From contig CAVYDB010000020.1 in the NCBI GenBank assembly GCA_963767125.1, forward strand, positions 80,548 to 144,547: DNA of 64,000 nucleotides, given 5' to 3'. Source of the DNA: an uncultured Bacteroidota bacterium. GTDB lineage: Bacteria; Bacteroidota; Bacteroidia; JABEUT01. Positions 11,346-51,973 of this stretch are shown here, one piece after another (positions within the stretch are counted from its first letter, which is position 1; each line of letters opens with the position of its first letter). Made by a program: the position numbers and the translations under genes. The notes below the pieces were generated by a model. That model did no database searches, was not told the DNA's origin, and saw only the letters and a list, made by a program, of their open reading frames with translations.

Positions 11346-11353
11346 TAAATTTG
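11346..11353 (+). promoter_or_regulatory. -7 box TAAATTTG for cassette copy 1
   Basis: TAnnTTTG match 30 nt upstream of the ATG at 11383. Confidence 0.4.
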
Positions 11354-11382
11354 TTTTTCAATAATCTAAATAATTTAAAATT

Positions 11383-13050
11383 ATGAGAACAAAAACTTTT
11401 TCTTCCTTGACCATGTTAGCAGCAGGCTTATTTGCCTTTTCTGCAACAGCCCTGCATGCACAGGTGGGTATTAATAGTACGGCTGCAAATCCCGATGCTT
11501 CTGCCATACTTGACTTGAACACTGGCAATGCAGGTGTTAATAAAGGCTTTTTACCTCCACAGGTTGCTTTAACAAATGTTGCCACGGCAGCACCCGTTAC
11601 TACGCCTGCAACAGGTCTTATAGTTTACAGTACTTCTGCCCCTACAGGTGGCGACGGGACAGGATATTATTACTGGAACGGTACCGGGTGGATAGGAATA
11701 GCCGGAGGGTCAGCGGGCGCCATTGGCGGTTCCGGAATAAATGGTTATGTAGCCATTTGGACCCCAAACGGAACCACACTTGGTACAGGTTCTATACAGG
11801 ATGATGGCGCTGAAATTGGTGTAGGTACTACTCCCAATTCTGGTACAGAAATATGGGCGATGGGAGTGAATGAAGCAGTTTATGGAGAAGCAACTGATGC
11901 TAGCGGGGGGTATGCCGGTGTTTTCGGAAGAGATGACGGCGGTGGTCCTGGTACATACGGAACTTCTGTCTCTGGTCCCGGTGTTTGGGGGGTTGCTACA
12001 ACTACCGGTGTGCGCGGTGATGGTGATACTGCAGTAGCTGCGTATGGTTACTATAATGGCATTACAGCTTATGGGCCTAATTACGGAATTTATGCCTCAT
12101 CTCCTGCAGGCTGGCCTGTATTTGCTATTTCGCCCGGATCTGAAGAAGGTGTTTTCGGTGAATGTGACGGTTCAAACGGATGGGGTGTAAATGGATATTC
12201 ACAAGGTGCTACCGGTATAGGTGTTGTTGGTGAAGATGATGCTGCGGCAGGGTATGGAGTAGAAGGTACTTCTGGTAGCGGTATAGGAGTATATGCTGCT
12301 GGTGGAACTTATGGGAGTTATTCTGTGGATGCTAATGCTGATTACCTCATAGGTGGCCACCCGGCAGATGCATCTGCTGGTTATTTTAATAATGCCAATG
12401 GGGATTATGGATGGCTTGCCTATGGTACTTTAGATGAAGGTGGTTATTTTGAGGATGCCGGTGGCGATTATTCCTATATTTCTTACGCAGGATATGGAAT
12501 TCTTTCAAATGGAACAAAATCCACAGAAGTGAAAGATGAAAACAACCAGGAAAGAGTATTATTCTGTGATGAGTCTCCAGAAGTTGTATTTCATGATTAT
12601 GGAACTTCCCAACTTGTAAATGGAAAGGTTCATATCAACCTGGATCCCCTATATTCAAAAACGGTAGCCATTAATGAAAAACATCCATTGCGCGTTATGG
12701 TTACCTTGAATGATGAATGTAATGGAATATTTGTTAAAAACCGTACTGCTACCGGTTTTGATGTTATTGAGTTAAATCATGGCACATCCAATGCTCAATT
12801 TACGTATGAAGTAATTGCAAACCGTGCAGATACTAAAAATGCCAAGGGTGAAGTATATGATTATTCTAACTGGCGTTATCCTGTTGGTCCTGGTAGCCAG
12901 GCAAAGCCAACCCAAACTGCTTTACAACCTAATGTAACTAAAAAGAGACCAGTTGCATCAACCAATATTCATGGAGTCAATAAAGGTGAAAAAAGAGATT
13001 TACGTGCAGGCTTATTGCCCGGGCAGACTTCTTCACCCGGTAAGAATTAA
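11383..13050 (+). CDS. Secreted Gly/Tyr-rich repeat protein, cassette gene A1 (conserved ends, variable core)
   Basis: 555 aa. Signal peptide MRTKTFSSLTMLAAGLFAFSATALHA. N-domain motif SAILDLN..NKGFLPPQV..GLIVYS..GYYYWNGTGW, as in many Bacteroidota tail-fibre-like hypotheticals. Core of degenerate G-x-G-V/Y rungs. C-domain ESPEVVFHDYGTSQLVNGKVHI...ATGFDVIEL.HGTSNAQFTYEVIANR. No T9SS sorting domain. Confidence 0.85.
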   Translation: MRTKTFSSLTMLAAGLFAFSATALHAQVGINSTAANPDASAILDLNTGNAGVNKGFLPPQVALTNVATAAPVTTPATGLIVYSTSAPTGGDGTGYYYWNGTGWIGIAGGSAGAIGGSGINGYVAIWTPNGTTLGTGSIQDDGAEIGVGTTPNSGTEIWAMGVNEAVYGEATDASGGYAGVFGRDDGGGPGTYGTSVSGPGVWGVATTTGVRGDGDTAVAAYGYYNGITAYGPNYGIYASSPAGWPVFAISPGSEEGVFGECDGSNGWGVNGYSQGATGIGVVGEDDAAAGYGVEGTSGSGIGVYAAGGTYGSYSVDANADYLIGGHPADASAGYFNNANGDYGWLAYGTLDEGGYFEDAGGDYSYISYAGYGILSNGTKSTEVKDENNQERVLFCDESPEVVFHDYGTSQLVNGKVHINLDPLYSKTVAINEKHPLRVMVTLNDECNGIFVKNRTATGFDVIELNHGTSNAQFTYEVIANRADTKNAKGEVYDYSNWRYPVGPGSQAKPTQTALQPNVTKKRPVASTNIHGVNKGEKRDLRAGLLPGQTSSPGKN

Positions 13051-13075
13051 TTTTAATGTTTAAAATTAAAACGAC

Positions 13076-14071
13076 ATGAAAAAGTATATAGGCCTAATAA
13101 TAGGGTTGCTTCCGTTACTATCGTCAGCGCAATTAGTAATTAATAGCGGGGACTATGTGGTGATAAACGGGAGTGCAGCCAGCCCATCGGGTATGGTATT
13201 GACCAATGCTGCGACTACAGCGATTACCAATGCAAGCACGGGCTGGATTATCACTAACAATGATTATAGTTTTGTGCAGTGGAATATAGGAACAGGAACG
13301 GGGATATACCGTGTCCCGTTTGGTTATTCCACTACCGACTATCTTCTTTTAACGTTCCAGGTAACAGCGGCAGGCGTGGGGAATGGAGTAGTTAAATTCT
13401 CGAGTTATCATGGTTCCAATTGGGACAATGCAGCATACGAGCCTTCTGATGTTACTACGTTGAGTGACTTTGGAGCGGGGGACTATTCAGTAAATATGGT
13501 TGACCGGTTTTGGAATATAGATGCGAATAGCGGATATACGACCAAGCCGACGGTGAACATGAAGTTTAGCTATATCAATAGTGGTGCAGGAGCAGAAGTA
13601 TCGGCGCCGAATTATATAGTGAACAATGCGTTGATAGCCCAGCGTTTCAATTCCAGTTCGGATGTATGGGACGACTTTTTGGGAAGTACGGGGACTCAGC
13701 TGACATCGGGAAATGTAGCAACTGTTTCGAGCGGTTCGGTATCACCGGCCGATTTATTCCGTTCGTGGACAGTAGCGAATGATTCTAACCTGATAACAAA
13801 TGTTGGGGTAGTTTCTGTTGCATCATCCAATCTTACTATCTGGCCCAGTCCGGCTACCCAATGCATTAATGTAAAATTCGGAGCGGGGTTAAGTGGGGAT
13901 GCAGTAATAAGTGTGGTAAATGTAATAGGGCAGGAATTAATCAGGAAAAGCCAGTATATATCTACAGGTATGATACTTCCTATAGATATTTCCACGTTGC
14001 CGGCTGCGATGTATTTTATTCGGGTAAACACGGATAAAACGGAAACAGCCACTAAGTTTATCAAGCAGTAA
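13076..14071 (+). CDS. T9SS-sorted secreted protein, cassette gene B1
   Basis: 331 aa. Signal peptide MKKYIGLIIGLLPLLSSAQ. The last 80 aa or so fit the T9SS type A C-terminal sorting domain (LTIWPSPATQCINVKF..VISVVNVIGQEL..IDISTLPAAMYFIRV..KFIKQ). Confidence 0.85.
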   Translation: MKKYIGLIIGLLPLLSSAQLVINSGDYVVINGSAASPSGMVLTNAATTAITNASTGWIITNNDYSFVQWNIGTGTGIYRVPFGYSTTDYLLLTFQVTAAGVGNGVVKFSSYHGSNWDNAAYEPSDVTTLSDFGAGDYSVNMVDRFWNIDANSGYTTKPTVNMKFSYINSGAGAEVSAPNYIVNNALIAQRFNSSSDVWDDFLGSTGTQLTSGNVATVSSGSVSPADLFRSWTVANDSNLITNVGVVSVASSNLTIWPSPATQCINVKFGAGLSGDAVISVVNVIGQELIRKSQYISTGMILPIDISTLPAAMYFIRVNTDKTETATKFIKQ

Positions 14072-14094
14072 AGGAGAAAGAAATGAAAACTGAA

Positions 14095-14123
14095 AAGGAG
14101 GGAATAAACACCCTCCTTTTTTT
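14095..14123 (+). terminator. Rho-independent terminator of cassette 1
   Basis: AAGGAGGG-AATAAACA-CCCTCCTT followed by TTTTT. Confidence 0.7.
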
Positions 14124-14194
14124 ATTTCCGATAAGATAATATAAAATGTTCAAAAAAATAAAATGATAGTTGCGTTAAGGCATTAAAATTGTAT

Positions 14195-14202
14195 TATATT
14201 TG
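14195..14202 (+). promoter_or_regulatory. -7 box TATATTTG for cassette copy 2
   Basis: TAnnTTTG match 34 nt upstream of the ATG at 14236. Confidence 0.4.
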
Positions 14203-14235
14203 TATTCTAATTGTTTAACCCTAAAATTAATAACT

Positions 14236-15933
14236 ATGAGAACAAAAACTTTTTCTTCCCTGACAATGTTAGCAGCAGGCTTATTCGCCTTTACTGCAAC
14301 AGCCCTGCATGCACAGGTGGGTATTAATAATACCGCTGCAAACCCGGATGCTTCTGCCATACTTGACTTAAATACAGGTAATGCAGGTGTGAATAAAGGC
14401 TTTTTACCCCCACAGGTTGCTTTAACAAATGTTGCCACAGCAGCACCCGTTACTACTCCGGCTACAGGTCTTATTGTATATAGTACCGCTGCCCCTACAG
14501 GTGGTGACGGAACAGGATATTATTATTGGAATGGTACCGGGTGGGTAGGTTTGGCGGGAGGTTCCGCTGGAGCTATTGGAGGTTCCGGAGTTGATAATTA
14601 CGTTGCACGCTGGACTCCCAATGGAACTACATTGGGTACCGGCTTAATACAGGACAATGGCACCGGTGTAGGAGTAAATAGCGCACCTGTGGCTGGTAAC
14701 CTGGTGTATGCAAGCGGTACTACCGGTATAGCAGTTAATGGCACTTCTGATACCGGTGTAGCCGGGTATAGCGCCACTAACATGGGCGTTGTTGCATATT
14801 CTTTGCTAAACGATGGGGTTTGGGCTAATGCCGATTATGGTGGTGTTTATGGAAATGGGTATAACGGATACGGAGTTTGGGGACAAGATGGAATGGGCGA
14901 TGAGGCAATTTTAGCATGGGATTATTATGGAACCTATGGTTATGGTCTTTATTCAACAGGGGTAAACTATGGAGTTTACACTACTGCATCGGCAGCTGCC
15001 GGCGTAGGGGTTTATGCATCTGGCGATACAGCCATAAATGCCTATGGCAGTTGGAATGGAATAGATGCATATTCCGCTAATAACGATGGTATCTCAAGTA
15101 AAGGCCTCTGGGGCGGTGTATATGCATCGGGTGATAACTATGGGCTTTTTGGGTATGGTTCAAATTATGGAGGTATATTTGAAGATCCGAACGGCGATGA
15201 GGCTGTATTGGCATATAATTCTTCTGAACTTGGTATTTATTCTTATGGTTTAAGTTCCGGAGGTTACTTTGTCGATGGAAACTATGATGTAGCCACCAGT
15301 GGCGGAGATTATGCCTATATAGCTTATGGACCTTCTGCCGCAGGCGCTTATTTTGAAGATGATGCCGGCGATTATGTTTATGACGCGTATGCAGGATACT
15401 CAAATTTTGGTTCAGGACCGAAAAATACCATAGTAAAAGATCAAAGCGGACAATACCGTGCTATGTCTTGCCCCGAGGCGCCTGAAGTGCTGTTTCAAGA
15501 TTATGGTACATCCCAATTGGTAAATGGAAAAGTTCATATTGAGTTGGACAAAACGTTTGCTTATACTGTTTGCATTAATGAAAAGCACCCCCTTCGCGTT
15601 ATGGTTACCTTGAATGATGCTGATTGTAATGGAGTAGCAGTAATCAACAGGTCGGCTACAGGTTTTGATGTAGTGGAATTAGCTCATGGTACCTCCAATG
15701 CTTCATTTACGTATGAAGTGGTTGCCAACCGTGCCAATACAAAGACCCATAAAGGAGTAGCAAGAAATTATGCTGATATACGCTACAACGATGCTCCAGG
15801 ACCTTTGGCAAGACCAAAACAAGCCAGCAGTTTAACCCAAACCCCCAATAACCCAAACAGGAGTGAAGGGAAGCACTTTAGCATGACTGCAAAGCCAAAG
15901 CCAAGTCCTACCGCTACACAAGGTAAAAATTAG
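14236..15933 (+). CDS. Secreted Gly/Tyr-rich repeat protein, cassette gene A2
   Basis: Start moved to the ATG homologous to A1 (MRTKTFSSLTMLAAGLFAFTATALHA); the track ORF starts at 14200. Same N- and C-domains as A1, but a different and longer core (GVYGNGYNGYGVWGQDGMGDEAILAWDYYGTYGYGLYSTGVNYGVY...). Confidence 0.85.
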   Translation: MRTKTFSSLTMLAAGLFAFTATALHAQVGINNTAANPDASAILDLNTGNAGVNKGFLPPQVALTNVATAAPVTTPATGLIVYSTAAPTGGDGTGYYYWNGTGWVGLAGGSAGAIGGSGVDNYVARWTPNGTTLGTGLIQDNGTGVGVNSAPVAGNLVYASGTTGIAVNGTSDTGVAGYSATNMGVVAYSLLNDGVWANADYGGVYGNGYNGYGVWGQDGMGDEAILAWDYYGTYGYGLYSTGVNYGVYTTASAAAGVGVYASGDTAINAYGSWNGIDAYSANNDGISSKGLWGGVYASGDNYGLFGYGSNYGGIFEDPNGDEAVLAYNSSELGIYSYGLSSGGYFVDGNYDVATSGGDYAYIAYGPSAAGAYFEDDAGDYVYDAYAGYSNFGSGPKNTIVKDQSGQYRAMSCPEAPEVLFQDYGTSQLVNGKVHIELDKTFAYTVCINEKHPLRVMVTLNDADCNGVAVINRSATGFDVVELAHGTSNASFTYEVVANRANTKTHKGVARNYADIRYNDAPGPLARPKQASSLTQTPNNPNRSEGKHFSMTAKPKPSPTATQGKN

Positions 15934-15984
15934 TTTTTTGCCTATTAAAAGCAAAAATTAATGTAACCCATAAATTAAAACGAC

Positions 15985-16980
15985 ATGAAAAAGTATATAG
16001 GCCTAATAATAGGGTTGCTTCCGTTACTATCGTCAGCGCAATTAGTAATTAATAGCGGGGGCTATGTGGTAATAAACGGGAGTGCAGCCAGCCCATCGGG
16101 TATGGTATTGACCAATGCTGCGACTACAGCGATTACCAATGCAAGCACGGGCTGGATTATCACTAACAATGATTATAGTTTTGTGCAGTGGAATATAGGA
16201 ACCGGAACGGGGATATACCGTGTCCCGTTTGGTTATTCCACTACCGACTATCTTCTTTTAACGTTCCAGGTAACAGCGGCAGGCGTGGGGAATGGAGTAG
16301 TTAAATTCTCGAGTTATCATGGTTCCAATTGGGACAATGCAGCATACGAGCCTTCTGATGTTACTACGTTGAGTGACTTTGGAGCGGGGGACTATTCAGT
16401 AAATATGGTTGACCGGTTTTGGAATATAGATGCGAATAGCGGATATACAACCAAGCCGACGGTGAACATGAAGTTCAGCTATATCAATAGTGGTGCAGGA
16501 GCAGAAGTATCGGCGCCGAATTATATAGTGAACAATGCGTTGATAGCCCAGCGTTTCAATTCCAGTTCGGATGTATGGGACGACTTTTTGGGAAGTACAG
16601 GGACTCAGCTTACATCGGGAAATGTAGCAACTGTTTCGAGCGGTTCGGTATCACCGGCCGATTTATTCCGTTCGTGGACAGTAGCGAATGATTCTAACCT
16701 GATAACAAATGTTGGGGTAGTTTCTGTTGCATCATCCAATCTTACTATCTGGCCCAGTCCGGCTACCCAATGCATTAATGTAAAATTCGGAGCGGGGTTA
16801 AGGGGGGATGCAGTAATAAGTGTGGTAAATGTAATAGGGCAGGAATTAATCAGGAAAAGCCAGTATATATCTACAGGTATGATACTTCCTATAGATATTT
16901 CCACGTTGCCGGCTGCGATGTATTTTATTCGGGTAAACACGGATAAAACGGAAACAGCCACTAAGTTTATCAAGCAGTAA
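15985..16980 (+). CDS. T9SS-sorted secreted protein, cassette gene B2
   Basis: 331 aa. Differs from B1 at two residues (D26G, S->R in GAGL[S/R]GD). Same T9SS sorting domain. Confidence 0.85.
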   Translation: MKKYIGLIIGLLPLLSSAQLVINSGGYVVINGSAASPSGMVLTNAATTAITNASTGWIITNNDYSFVQWNIGTGTGIYRVPFGYSTTDYLLLTFQVTAAGVGNGVVKFSSYHGSNWDNAAYEPSDVTTLSDFGAGDYSVNMVDRFWNIDANSGYTTKPTVNMKFSYINSGAGAEVSAPNYIVNNALIAQRFNSSSDVWDDFLGSTGTQLTSGNVATVSSGSVSPADLFRSWTVANDSNLITNVGVVSVASSNLTIWPSPATQCINVKFGAGLRGDAVISVVNVIGQELIRKSQYISTGMILPIDISTLPAAMYFIRVNTDKTETATKFIKQ

Positions 16981-17003
16981 AGGAGAAAGAAATGAAAACT
17001 GAA

Positions 17004-17032
17004 AAGGAGGGAATAAACACCCTCCTTTTTTT
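17004..17032 (+). terminator. Rho-independent terminator of cassette 2
   Basis: Same AAGGAGGG-AATAAACA-CCCTCCTT + T-run hairpin as at 14095. Confidence 0.7.
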
Positions 17033-18163: not shown

Positions 18164-19003
18164 ATGAAATTGAAAAACACGTTTAAAATTAGTTCTCTTT
18201 TATTTTTATTATTCCTTGCCGGGTGTTCATCTCCGCTTGTCTATTCGGGTATTTGGCAGGATAAACCGGTAACTATTGATGGAAAAGCAACCGAGTGGAA
18301 AATCCCTCTTGATTATTATGACGATAAAACAAAATTGAATTTTTCTATTTCTAATGATAAAACCAACCTTTATTTTTGTATTCGTGCTACGGAAGATGAA
18401 ACACAAAAGGGAATAATACACTCCGGGCTCCAGGTATGGATAGATACCGGGGGAAGTAAGAAAACCCAGGTGGGCATCCAGTTTCCTGTCATTCAAAGAA
18501 GCGGGGAATCGTCAGGCACCCGGCATTCCCAATCTTCAGGTGCTACCAGTAATGAAGAAACGCCCGTGGCATACAGTTTGAAAAGCCGGTATGCAGGAAC
18601 CCATAAGCAAATACGACTTACAGGGTTCGGCGGGGGTATTAATGGACTTGCTGAAACACCCAATATGTATGGCATTAATGCCTGCCTGAACTGGGATACC
18701 AATAATATAATGATTTATGAAATATCTGTACCCTTCAGTACCTTTTATAAAACGGCCCTTATACCTTCCGATAGCACAAAAGTACTGGATGTTTCTTTTT
18801 TTGTGAGTGTTGCTTCACAAAGCTATGGGGGTGGAGAAGGCGGCGGCCGCTCGGGAGGAATGGGAGGTGGAATGGGAGGGATGCATGGTGGAGGCGGAGG
18901 AGGTGGTCATGGAGGTGGGGGACATAGCAGTGGCGGTAGTGATGCAAACAACAGGACCCTTGCCGCGCATGTAAAAATCAGGTTATCAACCCAGCATCTC
19001 TAA
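18164..19003 (+). CDS. Lipoprotein with a Gly/His/Met-rich low-complexity tail
   Basis: 279 aa. Lipobox FLAGCSS and a globular domain (VTIDGKATEWKIPLDYYDDKTKLNFSISNDKTNLYFCIRA, reminiscent of CBM9/DOMON-like folds). Tail is GGGEGGGRSGGMGGGMGGMHGGGGGGGHGGGGHSSGG. Confidence 0.65.
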   Translation: MKLKNTFKISSLLFLLFLAGCSSPLVYSGIWQDKPVTIDGKATEWKIPLDYYDDKTKLNFSISNDKTNLYFCIRATEDETQKGIIHSGLQVWIDTGGSKKTQVGIQFPVIQRSGESSGTRHSQSSGATSNEETPVAYSLKSRYAGTHKQIRLTGFGGGINGLAETPNMYGINACLNWDTNNIMIYEISVPFSTFYKTALIPSDSTKVLDVSFFVSVASQSYGGGEGGGRSGGMGGGMGGMHGGGGGGGHGGGGHSSGGSDANNRTLAAHVKIRLSTQHL

Positions 19004-19018
19004 TTAATAGCGGGAAAC

Positions 19019-21916
19019 TTGAAAGCTGGCTGGGGTATTACTTTACTTTTAGGAATGCTATTTGCAGGACATGGGTTAGCCCAATCTCAATCCCAGCAAC
19101 CGATAAAGATAATTGGCAAATTTATCAGTGACTCCGATAAGACTATACTTTCAGGCGTTGTTGTTACCCTATATACCCCGGATAGCGCCCAACAGTTTGT
19201 GACTTCTACCGACAACAATGGGATTTTCACATTTGAAAATATAATCCCCGGCAGGTACCGGTTAAGGGCTTCCTTCCTGGGTTTCCAGGATTTTAATATC
19301 CGGCTTGCCATGTCTGATAGGGACATTAATATGGGTATTCAAAAGATGAAATGGGGTACTACGGATATAAAAGGGGTCACTATTCACGGCACTGTGCCTG
19401 TTCAGCAGCATGAAGATACCACCGAATATAACGCCGATGCTTTTAAAACCCAACCTGATGCTTCAGCCGAAGATTTGGTAAATAAAATGCCCGGGATAAG
19501 TTCCCAGAATGGCGCTGTTACAGTAAACGGAGAACAGGTGACGCAGGTACTTGTTGATGGCACTCCATTTTTTGGCGACGACCCTATGGTAGCCCTGAAA
19601 AATCTTCCTGCCGAAGTGATAGATAAAATACAAGTGTTCGACAAACTTAGCGACCAGGCACAGTTTACAGGTTTTGACGATGGAAACACCCAAAAAACCA
19701 TCAATATTGTTACCAAACGAAATAAGCGCAATGGTACATTTGGCAAGGCTTATGCCGGTTACGGAACCGACAAGCGTTACCTTGCCGGCGGAAATATGAA
19801 TTTCTTTAATGGTCCGAGCCGCTTCAGTGTAATTGGGCTTGCCAATAATATTAACCAACAGAATTTTGCCACCGAAGATATTTTAGGTGCATTAGGCGGT
19901 AATGGGGGCGGGGGCAGAGGTGGCTCAGGAGGCGGCCCACGCAGTGGGGGTGGGGGGAATGGTGGAGGTGGAAGTAACATTTCCGGTACAGGTGGCGGGC
20001 TTACACGTGGTGCAGGCAATTTTTTGGTAGGGCAACAGGGCGGAATTACAACAACTAATTCAATAGGAATGAATTATAGCGATGCCTGGGACAAGAACAG
20101 GGTGAAACTTACGTCGAGTTATTTTTTCAATAATGCGGTAAACAGTAATAATACAACATCCTCCACAGCATATACAGGTGGCGCTGAGAACAGTAATATT
20201 TATGACCAGACATCGGGTTCGGGCAGCACCAATTATAATAGCCGCATAAATGCCCGGCTGGAATGGAACCTGGATACCAATGATGCCATATATGTAATAT
20301 TAAAAGGAAACATCCAGCAGACCCATACCTCGGCAACTGCTACAGAGTTTGACTTACTGAGTGATATAGAACAAAGTCTTTCCCAAACCAATTCATCTTC
20401 TGCAAGCAGGGGATATGATTATTCGGGCAATATTTTATACATGCATAAATTCAGAAGAAAGGGAAGGACCATTTCCTGGAACCTCGGTTTCGATAATAAT
20501 AATAAGAATACACCCGGTACCCTTTTCTCCATGGACGAGTTTTATGTGAAAGATACCGGCACCCTGATTAACCAGCAGTATTCGCAATTTACCTATGGCA
20601 ATACATTTTCCTCCAGCCTTTCTTATACCCAACCTATTGATAGTAATAGTATCCTCCAATTTAACTATAGTCCTTCGGTTAATGTAAATAATACTGATAA
20701 AAGGACCTTCAATTATGATTCTAACGGGGAGGCTTATTTATTGCCCGACACGGCATTATCTAACCAATATGAAAATACTTATATAACCCAGGCTATCGGG
20801 ATAAGTTACCGGTTAAACCACGGGAAGAAGTATTATATTATGATAGGGCTGAACCCCCAATACTCTACCCTAACTTCGCAGGAAGAATATCCCGTTAATA
20901 ACCTCCCGTCAATCCAGCGAAATTATACCAGCATACTGCCCCGCATTATATTTAATTATAAATTTTCACAAAGTAAAAACCTGCGGATAATGTACCGCAG
21001 TAATGTTACCCCGCCTACTATATCGCAGTTGCAAAATGTGGTGAATAATAGCAACCCCTTATTGCTAAATACAGGTAATCCGCAGCTAAAACAAGATTTT
21101 GAGCAGAGTTTTATTACACGCTACGGGGCTACGAACGCTAAAGCGGGAACAACTTTCCTTGTTTATATGTATGCTAATTATATAGAGAACTATATCGGCA
21201 ATGCCTCATATATCCCCTTAAAAGATAGTACCCTATCCGACGGAACCATTTTATATACAGGTTCTCAGCTATCGCAACCTGTAAATTTGCAGGGATATTG
21301 GAATGCCAAGGCTTTTATTACCTACGGATGGTTGATACGTCCGCTGAAAGTAAATATCAATCTTAATTCCGGCGCTATTTATACACATACCCCCGCATTA
21401 ATAAATGATGTTGCTAACTATTCTACTAATCATACCTATAGTGAAGGGGTTGTATTAAGCAGCGATATAAGTGAAAATGTAGATTTCACCCTTTCTTATA
21501 CCGGTAATTATAGTACTGTAAGTAATACTTTGCAAAACCAGGAAGATGATAACTATTTTACAGGGGTTGCTATGGGTAAAATAAACCTGATATTCTTTAA
21601 AGGGCTAATTTTAAATACAAGCCTTAGCCAGACTACTTACACAGGGCTTTCCCAAACCTATAACCAGGCTATTTATTTGTGGAATGGCTCAGTGGGGTAT
21701 AAATTTTTAAAAAATAAACTATTGCAGGTTTCTATAAGTGTGAATGACATACTGAACCAGAATACCAATATTACCCGCACCGTGACCGATACCTATATTC
21801 AAGATAGTCAGACAGAGGTATTGAGGCGGTATTTTATGCTGAATCTCCAATTAAATATACGCAAGTATAAAACAGCTCCCGCACCCGATGCAAAAGCGGG
21901 AGGTAACAGAGGATAG
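19019..21916 (+). CDS. Large outer-membrane beta-barrel, TonB-dependent-receptor-like, with a CarboxypepD_reg-like N-domain and a Gly-rich insert
   Basis: 965 aa (TTG start per track). GVVVTLYTPDS..TDNNGIFTFENIIPGRYRLRASFLGFQ matches a carboxypeptidase-regulatory-like fold. Plug-like VNGEQVTQVLVDGTPFFGDDP. A 45-aa insert GGNGGGGRGGSGGGPRSGGGGNGGGGSN. Long strand-rich C-part ending RRYFMLNLQLNIRKY. Confidence 0.75.
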   Translation: MKAGWGITLLLGMLFAGHGLAQSQSQQPIKIIGKFISDSDKTILSGVVVTLYTPDSAQQFVTSTDNNGIFTFENIIPGRYRLRASFLGFQDFNIRLAMSDRDINMGIQKMKWGTTDIKGVTIHGTVPVQQHEDTTEYNADAFKTQPDASAEDLVNKMPGISSQNGAVTVNGEQVTQVLVDGTPFFGDDPMVALKNLPAEVIDKIQVFDKLSDQAQFTGFDDGNTQKTINIVTKRNKRNGTFGKAYAGYGTDKRYLAGGNMNFFNGPSRFSVIGLANNINQQNFATEDILGALGGNGGGGRGGSGGGPRSGGGGNGGGGSNISGTGGGLTRGAGNFLVGQQGGITTTNSIGMNYSDAWDKNRVKLTSSYFFNNAVNSNNTTSSTAYTGGAENSNIYDQTSGSGSTNYNSRINARLEWNLDTNDAIYVILKGNIQQTHTSATATEFDLLSDIEQSLSQTNSSSASRGYDYSGNILYMHKFRRKGRTISWNLGFDNNNKNTPGTLFSMDEFYVKDTGTLINQQYSQFTYGNTFSSSLSYTQPIDSNSILQFNYSPSVNVNNTDKRTFNYDSNGEAYLLPDTALSNQYENTYITQAIGISYRLNHGKKYYIMIGLNPQYSTLTSQEEYPVNNLPSIQRNYTSILPRIIFNYKFSQSKNLRIMYRSNVTPPTISQLQNVVNNSNPLLLNTGNPQLKQDFEQSFITRYGATNAKAGTTFLVYMYANYIENYIGNASYIPLKDSTLSDGTILYTGSQLSQPVNLQGYWNAKAFITYGWLIRPLKVNINLNSGAIYTHTPALINDVANYSTNHTYSEGVVLSSDISENVDFTLSYTGNYSTVSNTLQNQEDDNYFTGVAMGKINLIFFKGLILNTSLSQTTYTGLSQTYNQAIYLWNGSVGYKFLKNKLLQVSISVNDILNQNTNITRTVTDTYIQDSQTEVLRRYFMLNLQLNIRKYKTAPAPDAKAGGNRG

Positions 21917-33132: not shown

Positions 33133-33245
33133 TAAGTAGAGTACCCCTTTTTAAGGAGGCGCAAAGATATTAAAGAGTAAGACATCTTAACTATGTTTTT
33201 GTTTTATGATTCTGTGAATATTATTGAATATGTAAAAATTTTCTT

Positions 33246-33253
33246 TATCTTTG
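33246..33253 (+). promoter_or_regulatory. -7 box TATCTTTG
   Basis: TAnnTTTG match 24 nt upstream of the ATG at 33277. Confidence 0.4.
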
Positions 33254-33276
33254 CCCCATTAAATAAAACCAATACC

Positions 33277-33657
33277 ATGAACAAATTAAAAGTAACTATT
33301 GCCGGGCTGCTGATAGCATGCCTGGGAATCGGGGTAATGAATGCACAGAACAGCACCACAACCACCCCTGCTAAAAAAACAGCACCTAAAGCTACACCTA
33401 CTACTACCGCCCCTGCCGGACAGCATTTGAAAAAGGACGGTACACCCGATATGCGCTATAAAGAAAATAAAACGGCAAAGCCAGGTACTGCCACCCCACC
33501 TGCCGGACAACACATGAAGAAAGACGGTACACCTGATATGAGGAATAAAGAAAATAAAACAGCTAAACCTGCAACCACTGCTCCTGCTTCCAAAAAAGGA
33601 ACAGCTCCGGTAAAAAAAGATGCCTCTAAAAAGACAACTGCAGGCGACGCCAAATAA
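33277..33657 (+). CDS. Small secreted basic protein with a tandem 29-aa repeat
   Basis: Start at MNKLKVTIAGLLIACLGIGVMNA (signal peptide); the track ORF starts at 33193. Repeats are PAGQHLKKDGTPDMRYKENKTAKPGTATP and PAGQHMKKDGTPDMRNKENKTAKPATTAP. Confidence 0.65.
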   Translation: MNKLKVTIAGLLIACLGIGVMNAQNSTTTTPAKKTAPKATPTTTAPAGQHLKKDGTPDMRYKENKTAKPGTATPPAGQHMKKDGTPDMRNKENKTAKPATTAPASKKGTAPVKKDASKKTTAGDAK

Positions 33658-50530: not shown

Positions 50531-51973
50531 TTATTTCTGAATTATAAACTTCCCGTTAGAAATATTATTGCCTTTCTCATCCATAATCCGGTAGAGATAA
50601 ATTCCGTTGGGTTGGGAGGATAAATCAATGGCATTGTCACCCTGAGCAGAATGAAGAGTCTCAATTAACACCTTTTGACCAAGTGCATTATAAATTTTAA
50701 GTATTGGAAGAGATTCTTCACTTCGTTCAGAATGACATGTGACAATAAATTCTCCGTCGTTTGGGTTAGGATAAATTTTCACCTGTTCGTTATCCTTTGC
50801 CAGTTTATTTGTTTCTGCGGAAATATTATCTACTTCAGTCATTTTGCCATACATTGGACTATATCCAGTACTTGAGTCGAGGTCAATTAATTTTGTAAGA
50901 ATGTGGGAAGAAGAATATTGAAAAATTGTTCCTAAATTATGTTGCCCACCTCCATAAGTCATTCCATAATAATTTCCATCACTTGCTTGCATCAAGCTAC
51001 CGGCGGGGCTTCCTCCATTACTAGTGTCATTAAAGTCTATTAAAGTCGTAAGATTACCCGATGTTGTACACATAAAAAGTATCCCATGATTTGAGCTTCC
51101 ACCATATGAAGTCATTCCATATAAATTTCCATCGGATGCTTGGATTAAAGATCCAGTTGGAAACCCTCCGTTAGTGTCATGAAAGTCAACTAATTTTGTA
51201 AAAACGCCAGACGGACTATACCTGAAAAGAGTACCCAGATTATACCTTCCACCTTCGAACGTTAGTCCATAAAAATTTCCATCATTGGCAAAGAGCAAAT
51301 CTCCATAAGGATTGGTTCCATCCATCCTGCTGAAGCTATAGACAGAGTGAAATTCACCTGAAGGTGTAAATTTAAAAATGGTTCCGGAATCATGTTCACC
51401 CCCTGTATTGGTCATACCCCAAAAAGTGCTATCCGGAGTTTGTATTAAACTTCCGTAAGGGAAAGCTCCATCAGTATCTTTGAAGTAATGTAACGCAGTA
51501 TAATACCCCGAAAGTTCAAGTTTAAATATAATCCCATAGGAGCTAGTACTTGCACCACCCTCGGTAGTCATTCCATATAAATTTCCATCCAAAGCCTGAA
51601 TAAGACTATTCCCTTCAGGGGCACAATATCCCCAAACCGTATCTAAGTTTATAATCGTAGTAATTACCCCACTTGGACTGCAGTTAAAAATTGTACAACT
51701 GTCCATATAACCGCCATATAGTGAAGAAGCATAAAAATTGCCATCGCTGGCGTATAGTAAGCTACCCTCAGGTTCCGCCGCATAAGTTGCATCGAGGTTA
51801 GCAATGATTGTAAAGTTTCCTGAGGGAGTAATTGAAAATACTGTGCCAACGTTATTTGTTCCTCCATGACTTGTCAATCCATATAAAGTAACTTGGGCTT
51901 TTGTTTGGCTTGAACACAGAAGAGATAGTACTAAAATAGCAATAGTTACAAATGAGGTAATTTTATTTTTCAT
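50531..51973 (-). CDS. GloVer (choice-of-anchor) tandem-repeat beta-propeller protein with a T9SS sorting domain
   Basis: 480 aa. Signal peptide and about 6 repeats of the form LYGxTxxGGxxxxGTxFxxxPSGxxTxLxxF....P.GSLxQASDGNxYG. C-terminal VKIYPNPNDGEFIV...ILKIYNALGQKV...IDLSSQPNGIYLYRI...KFIIQK is a T9SS CTD. Confidence 0.85.
   Translation of the reverse strand: MKNKITSFVTIAILVLSLLCSSQTKAQVTLYGLTSHGGTNNVGTVFSITPSGNFTIIANLDATYAAEPEGSLLYASDGNFYASSLYGGYMDSCTIFNCSPSGVITTIINLDTVWGYCAPEGNSLIQALDGNLYGMTTEGGASTSSYGIIFKLELSGYYTALHYFKDTDGAFPYGSLIQTPDSTFWGMTNTGGEHDSGTIFKFTPSGEFHSVYSFSRMDGTNPYGDLLFANDGNFYGLTFEGGRYNLGTLFRYSPSGVFTKLVDFHDTNGGFPTGSLIQASDGNLYGMTSYGGSSNHGILFMCTTSGNLTTLIDFNDTSNGGSPAGSLMQASDGNYYGMTYGGGQHNLGTIFQYSSSHILTKLIDLDSSTGYSPMYGKMTEVDNISAETNKLAKDNEQVKIYPNPNDGEFIVTCHSERSEESLPILKIYNALGQKVLIETLHSAQGDNAIDLSSQPNGIYLYRIMDEKGNNISNGKFIIQK
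50636..50736. repeat. Inverted short-repeat units lying in frame inside the T9SS sorting domain
   Basis: GTCACCCTGAGCAGAATGAAGAGTCTC (50636-50662) and GAGATTCTTCACTTCGTTCAGAATGAC (50710-50736). The reverse complement of the latter contains the exact 24-mer found at 50456-50479. They encode ETLHSAQGDN and TCHSERSEESLP. Confidence 0.75.

What the first reader, a model, noticed from the sequence alone, without database searches (positions are those of the whole stretch)
11346..17032. Tandemly duplicated two-gene secreted-protein module whose large gene keeps its ends but swaps a Gly/Tyr-rich core
There are two consecutive copies of the unit [A: ~555-566-aa signal-peptide protein][B: 331-aa T9SS-sorted protein]. 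Each copy has its own TAnnTTTG box and the same hairpin terminator. A1 and A2 share an N-terminal domain of about 150 aa; by eye it is roughly nine in ten identical, and many of the nucleotide differences are synonymous. They also share a C-terminal domain of about 170 aa, roughly two thirds identical (ESPEV.F.DYGTSQLVNGKVHI...ATGFDV.EL.HGTSNA.FTYEV.ANR). The central 220-250 aa cannot be aligned and differs in length. It consists of degenerate G-x-G-V/Y rungs, is nearly free of charged residues, and looks solenoid-like. A has no T9SS sorting domain while its fixed partner B does. This suggests B acts as an export, anchoring or display partner for a polymorphic surface protein. I cannot assign either gene to a functionally characterised family. 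The conserved-ends, variable-core pattern resembles cassette-type surface variation or receptor-binding proteins.
Basis: partly seen in the sequence, partly recalled or inferred. Interest (0 to 1): 0.7.

Follow-up and report, generated by a model that had tools for sequence, protein, structure and literature searches.

The report
Tail-fibre-like fibres paired with T9SS partner
Two neighbouring two-gene operons in an uncultured Bacteroidia chromosome each encode a phage-tail-fibre-like fibre protein plus a partner carrying a type IX secretion signal; the pairing is widely conserved, and the partner copies are kept almost identical while the fibres diverge.

Summary
A1 (11383-13050), B1 (13076-14071), A2 (14236-15933) and B2 (15985-16980) form two promoter-to-terminator units.

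A is not an orphan. It has a Sec signal, an N-terminal PF26696 "PTL_trimer" domain and a Gly/Tyr-rich acidic stalk. Its C-terminal domain is homologous to a phage tail-protein family, and a basic disordered tail follows. Its predicted fold matches phage tail fibres and tailspikes. Relatives carry collagen repeats or the Peptidase_S74 fibre chaperone, so a trimeric fibre is likely.

B is a new all-beta domain plus a type A T9SS sorting domain.

The A-then-B order holds in 15 of 16 close, non-duplicate loci and in many distant ones. A syntenic locus in another organism has the same A-B-A-B array. In both genomes the B copies are 98-99% identical (dS 0.03-0.05) but only 48-49% identical between genomes. 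The A 5' ends are partly homogenised, and the stalks and heads are anciently diverged. This is an old array under concerted evolution, not a recent duplication with a swapped core.

I found no silent cassettes, inverted repeats or phage genes. That B anchors or co-exports A is plausible but untested.

Closest concept: Bdellovibrio MAT fibres. Novelty: new variant of a known kind.

The parts
11346..11353 (+). Bacteroidetes-type -7 promoter box TAAATTTG upstream of A1
   Evidence: Read directly from the sequence. It ends 29 nt before the ATG. Its function as a promoter is inferred from the known TAnnTTTG consensus.
11383..13050 (+). A1, a 555-aa fibre protein. Signal peptide 1-26 (cleavage predicted at LHA|Q); PF26696 PTL_trimer N-domain about 27-112 plus a second N module 113-150; Gly/Tyr-rich acidic stalk about 151-380; C-terminal domain 396-500; basic disordered tail 501-555.
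13076..14071 (+). B1, 331 aa. Signal peptide (SSA|Q); new all-beta domain about 18-240; T9SS type A sorting domain 252-331.
   Evidence: PF18962 E 1.8e-10 and TIGR04183 E 1.7e-9, both above their cut-offs. AF2 model pLDDT 87.8. Foldseek matches only solved T9SS sorting domains.
14092..14121 (+). Intrinsic-terminator-like hairpin plus T-run ending unit 1
   Evidence: Identical to the hairpin at 17001-17030.
14195..14202 (+). Promoter box TATATTTG upstream of A2
   Evidence: It ends 33 nt before ATG 14236.
14236..15933 (+). A2, a 565-aa paralogous fibre protein with the same architecture as A1. Stalk about 151-398; C domain 413-518; tail 519-565.
   Evidence: (P0003).
15985..16980 (+). B2, 331 aa. 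It differs from B1 by D26G and S273R plus 6 synonymous changes.
17001..17030 (+). Terminator-like hairpin ending unit 2
13063..14123 (+). Recently homogenised tract, copy 1 (B plus terminator). It is 99.2% identical to 15972-17032.
15972..17032 (+). Recently homogenised tract, copy 2.
11369..11668 (+). Older, partly homogenised tract covering the start codon, the signal peptide and most of the PTL_trimer domain. It is 87-93% identical to the A2 counterpart.
   Evidence: (family D2). dS is 0.17 for the signal peptide and 0.58 for residues 27-112.

Best explanation
The region holds two paralogous operons, each promoter - A - B - terminator.

A is a chromosomally encoded, Sec-exported protein that resembles a phage tail fibre and most likely forms a homotrimeric fibre. 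It has a conserved N-terminal attachment and trimerisation module (PF26696), a fast-evolving Gly/Tyr-rich acidic beta-stalk, a globular C-terminal head homologous to a phage tail-protein domain, and a basic disordered tail.

B is cargo of the type IX secretion system. It has a new beta-sandwich domain followed by a type A sorting domain, so it should cross the outer membrane through the T9SS and be attached to, or released at, the cell surface.

The A-B-A-B array is old and is maintained by concerted evolution. Gene conversion keeps the B copies nearly identical and partly homogenises the 5' ends of A. The stalks and heads stay different, which gives the cell two fibres of presumably different binding specificity.

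Inferred and not shown: B's N-terminal domain is the cell-surface dock for the fibre, and perhaps its carrier through the T9SS. A attaches by its conserved N-terminal end, so the variable head points outward as an adhesin or receptor-binding tip.
For: Architecture:
- PF26696 is recorded on A1 and A2 and on almost all of the 120 listed hits (219 below E 0.001). It maps to the N-terminus, because the 155-aa N-terminal fragment in L001 carries it and proteins with only the C domain lack it.
- Foldseek against PDB returns the cyanophage Pam1 tailspike (E 4e-4), the K1-lyase tailspike, R-pyocin fibres and AP22 gp53.
- Foldseek against BFVD gives 35 matches at E 1e-3 or better. Most of those that carry a name are tail-fibre, minor-tail or other fibre-type proteins; many are uncharacterised or unnamed.
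- PHROG 6616 'tail protein' matches the C domain at E 8e-6 and 3e-6.

Trimeric state (inferred):
- Relatives combine PF26696 with collagen repeats.
- The genes directly upstream of B in L028, L026 and L011 end in Peptidase_S74, the intramolecular trimerisation chaperone of phage fibres. L028 and L011 also carry the A N-domain; in L026 the contig cuts off the 5' end.

B:
- Sorting domain above the curated cut-offs, with a fold like solved T9SS substrate sorting domains.

Pairing:
- Of 16 close, non-duplicate B loci, 13 have a gene with an A-domain HMM hit 23-82 nt upstream on the same strand. One more (L026) has a Peptidase_S74-ended gene 18 nt upstream, and one (L009) has an A-type gene about 1.2 kb upstream with another ORF in between.
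- Distant B-domain proteins of 400-1700 aa also follow A-type genes.

Concerted evolution:
- The syntenic locus L054 has A-B-A-B between the same methyltransferase and downstream gene.
- B is 98-99% identical within each genome (dS 0.03-0.05) and 48-49% between genomes.
- The A N-domain is 90-95% identical within a genome and 72-75% between.
- The A C domain is 67-70% within and 52-58% between.
- The syntenic L005 orthologue keeps A1's C domain (94% aa) but has a different N-domain subtype (57%), while A1's N-domain is 95% identical to A2's. That pattern is as expected if conversion overwrote the N end.

N-end attachment, by analogy:
- S74-type fibres shed their C-terminal chaperone and attach by the N-terminus (established knowledge).
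- Bdellovibrio MAT fibres have the same layout, and their N-domain is proposed to bind an unidentified surface element (PMC10769870).
Against: - No direct evidence that A and B interact. No multimer prediction was possible.
- Among 120 A relatives there is no A-B fusion and none with its own sorting domain.
- Across 17 A-B pairs, B divergence does not track the A N-domain (Mantel r = -0.25). It tracks the adjacent A C domain (r = 0.39, p = 0.003), which physical linkage alone could explain.
- Some arrays have two A genes per B (L030, L004) or A genes without any B (L056, and one A in L055).
- How a fibre without a sorting domain crosses the outer membrane is unknown. My searches found no paper describing co-export through the T9SS.
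- The stalk of the A1 model has low confidence (pLDDT 40-68).
Confidence: 0.45

Rival explanations
1. B acts like a phage tail-fibre assembly protein or tip adhesin. It binds the C-terminal head or the basic tail of A in the periplasm, helps it fold, and may stay on the tip, as T4 gp38 or Mu/P2 Tfa do. Its sorting domain then takes the complex out.
For: B's gene lies immediately downstream of the fibre gene, as tfa genes do. B divergence correlates with the adjacent A C domain (r = 0.39, p = 0.003) and not with the N-domain.
Against: B1 and B2 are 99% identical while the two C domains are 70% identical and the tails 39%. B also follows A-type genes with an unrelated Peptidase_S74 C-terminus. 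B matches no PHROG family. Genetic linkage alone can explain the correlation.
Confidence: 0.15
2. A and B do not interact. They are two co-regulated envelope or surface proteins that travel together as an operon.
For: No fusion proteins. A arrays exist without B (L056). B-domain proteins occur without a nearby A in several distant loci (L044, L017, L048, L035).
Against: The adjacency survives divergence to below 35% identity in B, survives changes of A's C-terminal module, and persists in many genomic contexts with 6-134 nt gaps. Both genes are duplicated together, and B is actively homogenised in two genomes.
Confidence: 0.15
3. A is a periplasmic or outer-membrane-tethered fibre that is never displayed. 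For example, it could be held by its basic tail to peptidoglycan or LPS. B is secreted independently.
For: A has only a Sec signal. One relative (P0107) is annotated with an OmpA domain and collagen repeats. An OmpA-domain gene precedes the array in L004. Basic disordered tails are found across the family.
Against: The receptor-binding-like fold, the fast-evolving stalk and head, and the mosaic evolution are typical of exposed proteins. The analogous Bdellovibrio MAT fibres also have only a signal peptide yet are on the cell surface (PMC10769870).
Confidence: 0.15
4. The locus is a programmed variation system (silent cassettes, shufflon or diversity-generating retroelement) that swaps the A core.
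For: The conserved flanks around a hypervariable core look superficially like a cassette system.
Against: The 64-kb window has no extra A or B fragments and no inverted repeats of 40 nt or more. No recombinase or reverse transcriptase was found among the 30 larger ORFs scanned. Both copies have their own promoter, and their cores have saturated dS.
Confidence: 0.03
5. The locus is a remnant of a prophage, tailocin or contractile injection system.
For: Similarity to phage tail fibres.
Against: The neighbours are housekeeping and envelope genes: uvrC, a methyltransferase, outer-membrane barrels, a two-component system and efflux genes. There are no capsid, sheath, baseplate or integrase genes. 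Both proteins have Sec signal peptides. The same chromosomal synteny is seen in L005 and L054.
Confidence: 0.02

Closest known systems
Bdellovibrio bacteriovorus MAT (mosaic adhesive trimer) fibre superfamily (Caulton et al. 2024, PMC10769870)
   Same: Chromosomal, not phage-borne. Signal peptide followed by a conserved beta-rich N-domain of about 130 aa. Trimeric fibre with swappable C-terminal tips, in both S74 and non-S74 subfamilies. Multiple paralogues per genome. A starts with QVGINSTAANPDASAIL, which resembles the MAT and MYRF 'capping loop' motif xVGIGTxxPxxxL. The N-domain is proposed to bind an unidentified surface element.
   Different: A different phylum. Homology between the N-domains was not tested. 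The stalk here is a short Gly/Tyr-rich acidic segment. Each module carries a dedicated T9SS-sorted partner gene; the MAT paper's main text contains no occurrence of 'operon' and reports the surface partner as still unidentified. Bdellovibrio is outside the lineages reported to have a T9SS (PMC12421860 abstract).
Phage tail fibres and tailspikes, including Peptidase_S74 (endosialidase chaperone) fibres
   Same: Fold-level matches. The C domain hits PHROG 6616. Relatives end in S74. Evolution is mosaic, with the N and C domains decoupled (r = 0.04).
   Different: Not in a phage or tailocin context. It has a Sec signal peptide. A1 and A2 have no S74 domain. The downstream partner is a T9SS cargo protein, not a Tfa chaperone.
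T9SS type A cargo and surface adhesins (e.g. the SprB and RemA class)
   Same: B has a signal peptide and a type A sorting domain. In relatives the B domain heads long SprB-repeat proteins (the 977-aa protein in L004).
   Different: B's 220-aa N-terminal domain has no Pfam model in the copy searched and no match to a solved structure. A itself has no sorting domain.
Trimeric autotransporter adhesins (YadA type)
   Same: Trimeric Gly-rich beta-stalk adhesin concept. JGI labelled one relative (P0042) as a trimeric autotransporter adhesin.
   Different: No YadA anchor barrel and no Hep_Hag or HIM repeats were detected. The export route is different.

Membership tests
PF26696 PTL_trimer-containing proteins (A) | Match to the Pfam model PF26696 | tested here: met
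   The precomputed Pfam annotation lists PF26696 for P0001 (A1) and P0003 (A2) and for all 120 listed hits of the N-domain profile. The local Pfam copy returned no PF26696 match for A1 or A2, probably because it lacks this model.
Phage tail fibre / tailspike proteins (A) | Fold and sequence similarity to phage tail fibre or tail proteins | tested here: met
   Foldseek PDB: 7eea at E 4e-4. BFVD: 35 hits at E 1e-3 or better. phrog_6616 at E 8e-6 and 3e-6. The stalk of the model has low confidence.
Phage tail fibre / tailspike proteins (A) | Encoded within a phage, tailocin or contractile-injection gene cluster | tested here: not met
   The neighbours are housekeeping and envelope genes. The same chromosomal synteny is seen in L005 and L054.
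Phage tail fibre / tailspike proteins (A) | Homotrimeric assembly | not testable with these tools
   Inferred only, from collagen repeats and Peptidase_S74 in relatives.
Bdellovibrio MAT superfamily (A) | Signal peptide, then a conserved beta-rich N-domain of about 130 aa, then a fibre with S74 or non-S74 tips | tested here: met
   The architecture is seen in A1, A2 and relatives, compared with the description in PMC10769870.
Bdellovibrio MAT superfamily (A) | Sequence or structural homology of the N-terminal domain to the MAT N-domain | not tested
The A1 model did not match the solved MAT tips in the top 50 PDB hits.
T9SS type A cargo (B) | C-terminal sorting domain matching TIGR04183 / PF18962 above the curated cut-off, with a beta-sandwich fold | tested here: met
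   41.4 bits against a cut-off of 27, and 37.5 bits against 23. Foldseek matches 8glk_D, 8qb1_A and 8glj_D with TM 0.7-0.77 relative to the target.
T9SS type A cargo (B) | T9SS machinery present in the same genome | not tested
   The only indirect sign is another protein with a sorting domain at 50531-51973.
T9SS cargo (A) | C-terminal sorting domain | tested here: not met
   No PF18962 or TIGR04183 hit. The C-terminus is a disordered basic tail. None of 120 relatives carries a sorting domain.
Trimeric autotransporter adhesins (A) | C-terminal YadA-type membrane anchor | tested here: not met
   No such Pfam hit at E 1 or below.
Phage tail fibre assembly chaperones (B) | Homology to Tfa or gp38-type families | tested here: not met
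   No PHROG hit for B at E 0.01 or below. B also has a signal peptide and a sorting domain.
Programmed variation systems (shufflon, silent cassettes, DGR) | Silent copies, inverted repeats, or a recombinase / reverse transcriptase nearby | tested here: not met
   Only the 64-kb window was examined, and only its larger ORFs were scanned for domains.

The most novel reading that the evidence does not exclude
The B N-terminal domain is a dedicated cell-surface dock and T9SS carrier for trimeric tail-fibre-like adhesins that lack a sorting domain. This would be a two-component 'fibre plus T9SS-anchored socket' display system, and an example of a folded oligomer hitchhiking through the type IX translocon. 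The socket and the fibre's N-terminal plug would be kept interchangeable within a genome by gene conversion, while the fibre tips diversify. It would also suggest what kind of surface element anchors MAT-type fibres in other bacteria.
Probability: 0.3. Interest if true: 0.75.

Novelty: new variant of a known kind. Interest (0 to 1): 0.55.

Why it matters
Chromosomal fibres that resemble phage tail fibres are emerging as a way for bacteria to recognise surfaces and other cells, as shown for the MAT fibres of Bdellovibrio. How such fibres, which carry only a signal peptide, are exported and anchored is not known.

This locus gives a concrete candidate to test. A T9SS-sorted partner gene is fixed next to the fibre gene in many Bacteroidia loci. 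Its family is large, with at least 640 clusters at 50% identity, and has no described function.

The locus is also a clean natural example of region-specific concerted evolution. The partner is homogenised to 98-99% in two independent genomes, while the adjacent fibre stalks and heads stay anciently diverged. This marks which parts must stay uniform and which are free, or selected, to differ.

Tried and rejected
- Local Pfam and NCBIfam on A1 and A2: nothing significant. The local Pfam copy probably lacks PF26696.
- Sequence searches of the PDB with A1, B1 and profiles of the A N- and C-domains: only chance-level hits.
- Foldseek of B against the PDB: only the sorting domain matched. [quoted passage not shown]
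- Literature searches for PF26696 / PTL_trimer and for T9SS piggyback or hitchhiking: nothing relevant. I could not establish what 'PTL' stands for.
- An exact look-up of A1's contig failed, and the cluster look-up gave no names. The organism is known only as similar to uncultured Bacteroidia MAGs.
- Recent lateral transfer of the A1 C domain: rejected. Against the L005 orthologue its dS is 0.89, close to the flanking genes (1.3 or more); the 94% amino-acid identity reflects purifying selection.
- The Mantel test intended to show A N-domain / B co-evolution gave no signal.
- Prophage, tailocin and programmed-cassette readings: rejected.
- The minus-strand ORFs inside B (13696-14064 and 16605-16973) are shadow ORFs of the duplicated sequence.

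Full report
**What is in the sequence**

The region holds four plus-strand genes:
- A1, 11383-13050, 555 aa.
- B1, 13076-14071, 331 aa.
- A2, 14236-15933, 565 aa. The mechanical ORF begins at TTG 14200, but the alignment with A1 puts the start at ATG 14236.
- B2, 15985-16980, 331 aa.

A Bacteroidetes-type TAnnTTTG box precedes each A gene: TAAATTTG at 11346-11353 and TATATTTG at 14195-14202. An identical GC-rich hairpin with a T-run follows each B gene, at 14092-14121 and 17001-17030. A and B are separated by only 25 and 51 nt. Each unit therefore reads as a bicistronic operon. The promoter and terminator functions are inferred from consensus matches.

Similarity between the two units is strongly uneven along their length.

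| Segment | Identity A1 vs A2 (or B1 vs B2) | dS / dN |
|---|---|---|
| B plus terminator, 13063-14123 vs 15972-17032 | 99.2% DNA; 8 substitutions, 2 non-synonymous | dS 0.026 |
| First ~290 nt of A | 87-93% DNA | signal peptide dS 0.17 |
| A residues 27-112 | 95% aa | dS 0.58, dN/dS 0.04 |
| A residues 113-150 | 68% aa | dS ~2 |
| Stalk | no blastn match; 39% aa over 210 columns with 57 gap positions | saturated |
| C domain, 396-500 | 70% aa | dS 1.3 |
| Tail | 39% aa | dS 1.6 |

The claim that the core is nearly free of charged residues is not. K+R is about 1%, but D+E is 10-11%, so the core is acidic. G is 21-24% and Y 10-14%, and only a weak period of about 5 to 10 residues is visible.

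**What A is**

The local Pfam and NCBIfam libraries found nothing in A. The large protein search returned 219 relatives, and nearly all of the 120 listed are pre-annotated with PF26696 'PTL_trimer'. That domain is the N-terminal module:
- the 155-aa N-terminal fragment in L001 carries it;
- relatives that have only the C domain lack it;
- a profile of residues 27-150 recovered at least 2372 proteins, the 120 listed all carrying PF26696; those with a taxon label are Bacteroidota, and some also have collagen repeats.

The AlphaFold model of A1 is confident for residues 60-110 and 330-510, poor for the stalk and disordered for residues 515-555.
- Against the PDB it matched the cyanophage Pam1 tailspike (E 4e-4, 75 columns, 24% identity), the K1-lyase tailspike, R-pyocin fibres, the AP22 gp53 fibre and H-type lectins.
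- Against BFVD it gave 35 hits at E 1e-3 or better. Most of those that carry a name are tail-fibre, minor-tail or other fibre-type proteins; many are uncharacterised or unnamed.
- The C domain also matches PHROG 6616 'tail protein' by sequence, at E 8e-6 for A1 and 3e-6 for A2.

In three related loci the gene directly upstream of B ends in Peptidase_S74, the intramolecular chaperone of trimeric phage fibres, instead of this C domain. In L028 and L011 that gene also has the A N-domain. In L026 its 5' end is cut off by the contig. Together with the collagen-containing relatives, this makes a homotrimeric fibre the most likely form. That is an inference, not an observation.

The context is not phage. 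The neighbours are uvrC, a methyltransferase, outer-membrane barrels, a two-component system, efflux components and similar genes.

**What B is**

B has a signal peptide and a confidently modelled all-beta domain at about residues 18-240 (model pLDDT 87.8). That domain has no Pfam model in the copy searched and no convincing PDB relative. It is followed by a type A T9SS sorting domain (PF18962 and TIGR04183 above their cut-offs; fold equal to solved substrate sorting domains).

A profile search of 1.84 billion cluster representatives found 640 clusters at E 1e-30 or better. Most are 405-445 aa, two clusters have the 330-aa form, and some are 900-2000 aa. In relatives the B domain also heads long proteins, for example a 977-aa protein with SprB repeats in L004.

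In both A and B a Gln follows the likely signal-peptidase site. This fits the known Bacteroidetes 'Q-rule' (my own knowledge, not tested here).

**Is the pairing conserved?**

I built HMMs for the A N-domain, the A C domain, the B domain and the sorting domain. I scanned 53 fetched loci with them, and later three more.

Of 16 close, non-duplicate B loci:
- 13 have a gene with an A-domain HMM hit 23-82 nt upstream on the same strand;
- L026 has a gene ending in Peptidase_S74 18 nt upstream;
- L009 has an A-type gene about 1.2 kb upstream with another ORF in between;
- L006 has a 2203-aa protein with its own sorting domain instead.

Many distant B-domain proteins also follow A-type genes (L011, L012, L015, L031, L032, L036, and the second pair in L004).

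Arrays are common:
- A,A,B in L030 and L004;
- A,B,A in L027;
- A,B,A,B in L054 and L055;
- four A genes without B in L056.

**History of the duplication**

L054 comes from a different organism. Its methyltransferase is 70% and its downstream gene 59% identical to those of the window. It has the same order: methyltransferase, A, B, A, B, then the minus-strand genes.

| Part | Within each genome | Between the genomes |
|---|---|---|
| B | 98-99% aa, dS 0.03-0.05 | 48-49% aa, dS saturated |
| A N-domain | 90-95% | 72-75% |
| A C domain | 67-70% | 52-58% |

(Values.)

Independent recent duplications cannot explain this. Within each genome the A stalks and C domains are saturated at synonymous sites while B is almost identical. 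The simplest reading is an old tandem array under concerted evolution. Gene conversion is strong over B plus the terminator, weaker or older over the 5' end of A, and absent or selected against in the stalk and head.

A second syntenic locus, L005, supports this. Its A keeps A1's C domain (94% aa, dN 0.04, dS 0.89, against 1.3 or more for the flanking genes). Its N-domain is a different subtype (57% aa), whereas A1's N-domain is 95% identical to A2's.

Family-wide, N-domain and C-domain divergences are uncorrelated (Mantel r = 0.04, n = 17 pairs). Tandem paralogues in three loci all show N more conserved than C (80-88% against 61-78%). So the fibres are mosaics, as phage fibres are.

I found no machinery for programmed variation in the window: no further A or B fragments and no inverted repeats of 40 nt or more.

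**How it most likely works**

Shown by computation:
- the operon structure;
- the domain architecture of both proteins;
- the similarity of A to tail fibres;
- the T9SS sorting signal on B and its absence on A;
- the conserved pairing;
- the region-specific homogenisation.

Inferred:
- A forms a trimer.
- B is exported by the T9SS and held at the surface.
- B's N-terminal domain binds A and serves as its dock, possibly carrying it through the translocon.
- A is attached by its conserved N-terminal module, with the variable head outward.

The orientation argument rests on two analogies. S74-type fibres attach by the N-terminus and release the C-terminal chaperone. Bdellovibrio MAT fibres have the same layout of signal peptide, conserved N-domain of about 130 aa and swappable S74 or non-S74 tips, and the surface partner of their N-domain is still unidentified (PMC10769870). 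A also begins with a motif, QVGINSTAANPDASAIL, like the MAT and MYRF 'capping loop' consensus.

Weaknesses of this model:
- There is no interaction evidence and no fusion proteins.
- B divergence does not track the A N-domain (r = -0.25). It tracks the neighbouring C domain (r = 0.39, p = 0.003), which linkage can explain but which also fits a Tfa-like rival.
- A genes occur without B.
- I found no literature on co-export through the T9SS.

I put about 0.85 on the structural and evolutionary description. I put about 0.3-0.4 on B being the dock or carrier, and 0.45 on the statement as a whole.

**Comparison with known systems, and novelty**

A is a member of the PF26696-bearing proteins. It works like, and resembles, phage tail fibres and MAT fibres, but it fails the 'encoded in a phage cluster' criterion. 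Its homology to the MAT N-domain is untested. B is a bona fide T9SS type A cargo protein with an undescribed passenger domain.

The fixed fibre-plus-T9SS-partner operon and its concerted evolution were not found in the literature I could search. I rate this a new variant of a known kind, of moderate interest. All members found are from uncultured Bacteroidia MAGs, so every functional statement remains a prediction.

Noticed in passing
L054:5673-11797 (contig_114511_np1212, 423 kb): This locus is syntenic with the window (methyltransferase upstream, minus-strand genes downstream) and carries the same A-B-A-B array. Its two B copies are 98% identical to each other but only 48-49% identical to the window's B.
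   Followed up: yes
L013:7057-7971; L020:3881-4801; L041:1528-2448; L042:3004-3924: In four loci with distant B relatives, a conserved secreted Peptidase_M28 protein of about 305 aa sits between the A-type gene and the B-type gene. It may be a processing enzyme. It is absent from the window.
   Followed up: partly
window 12883-13050 and 15790-15933 (A tails); relatives: Across the family, the A proteins end in a 20-98-aa disordered tail that is basic and rich in K, P, N and Q. The tails often finish in ...GKN...KN or ...K, although their sequence is otherwise unconserved. Their role is unexplained.
   Followed up: partly
L056:585-9043: Four A-type genes lie in tandem (two with the A C domain, two without) and no B-domain gene follows. 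A SprB-repeat protein with a sorting domain lies just upstream.
   Followed up: partly
window 50531-51973 (- strand), repeats at 50946-51608: A second protein with a T9SS sorting domain (480 aa) contains five degenerate repeats of about 150 nt (50 aa). No Pfam match other than Por_Secre_tail.
   Followed up: no
window 33399-33569: Two tandem copies of an 84-nt unit at 87-nt spacing (81% identical) lie inside the ORF 33193-33657.
   Followed up: no
window 18164-19003 and 19019-21916: A secreted 279-aa protein with a C-terminal Gly/His-rich run (GGGMGGMHGGGGGGGHGGGGH) is followed by a 965-aa CarboxypepD_reg plus OMP_b-brl_3 barrel that carries its own Gly-rich insertion. The pair lies directly downstream of the A/B array on the same strand.
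   Followed up: no
L001:6399-7918; L055:1135-5302: The A and B genes in these nanopore-derived contigs ('np1212') are broken into several ORFs. These are probably indel errors rather than real pseudogenes.
   Followed up: no
window 13696-14064 and 16605-16973 (- strand): Identical 122-aa antisense ORFs lie inside B1 and B2. They are most likely shadow ORFs of the duplicated sequence.
   Followed up: no
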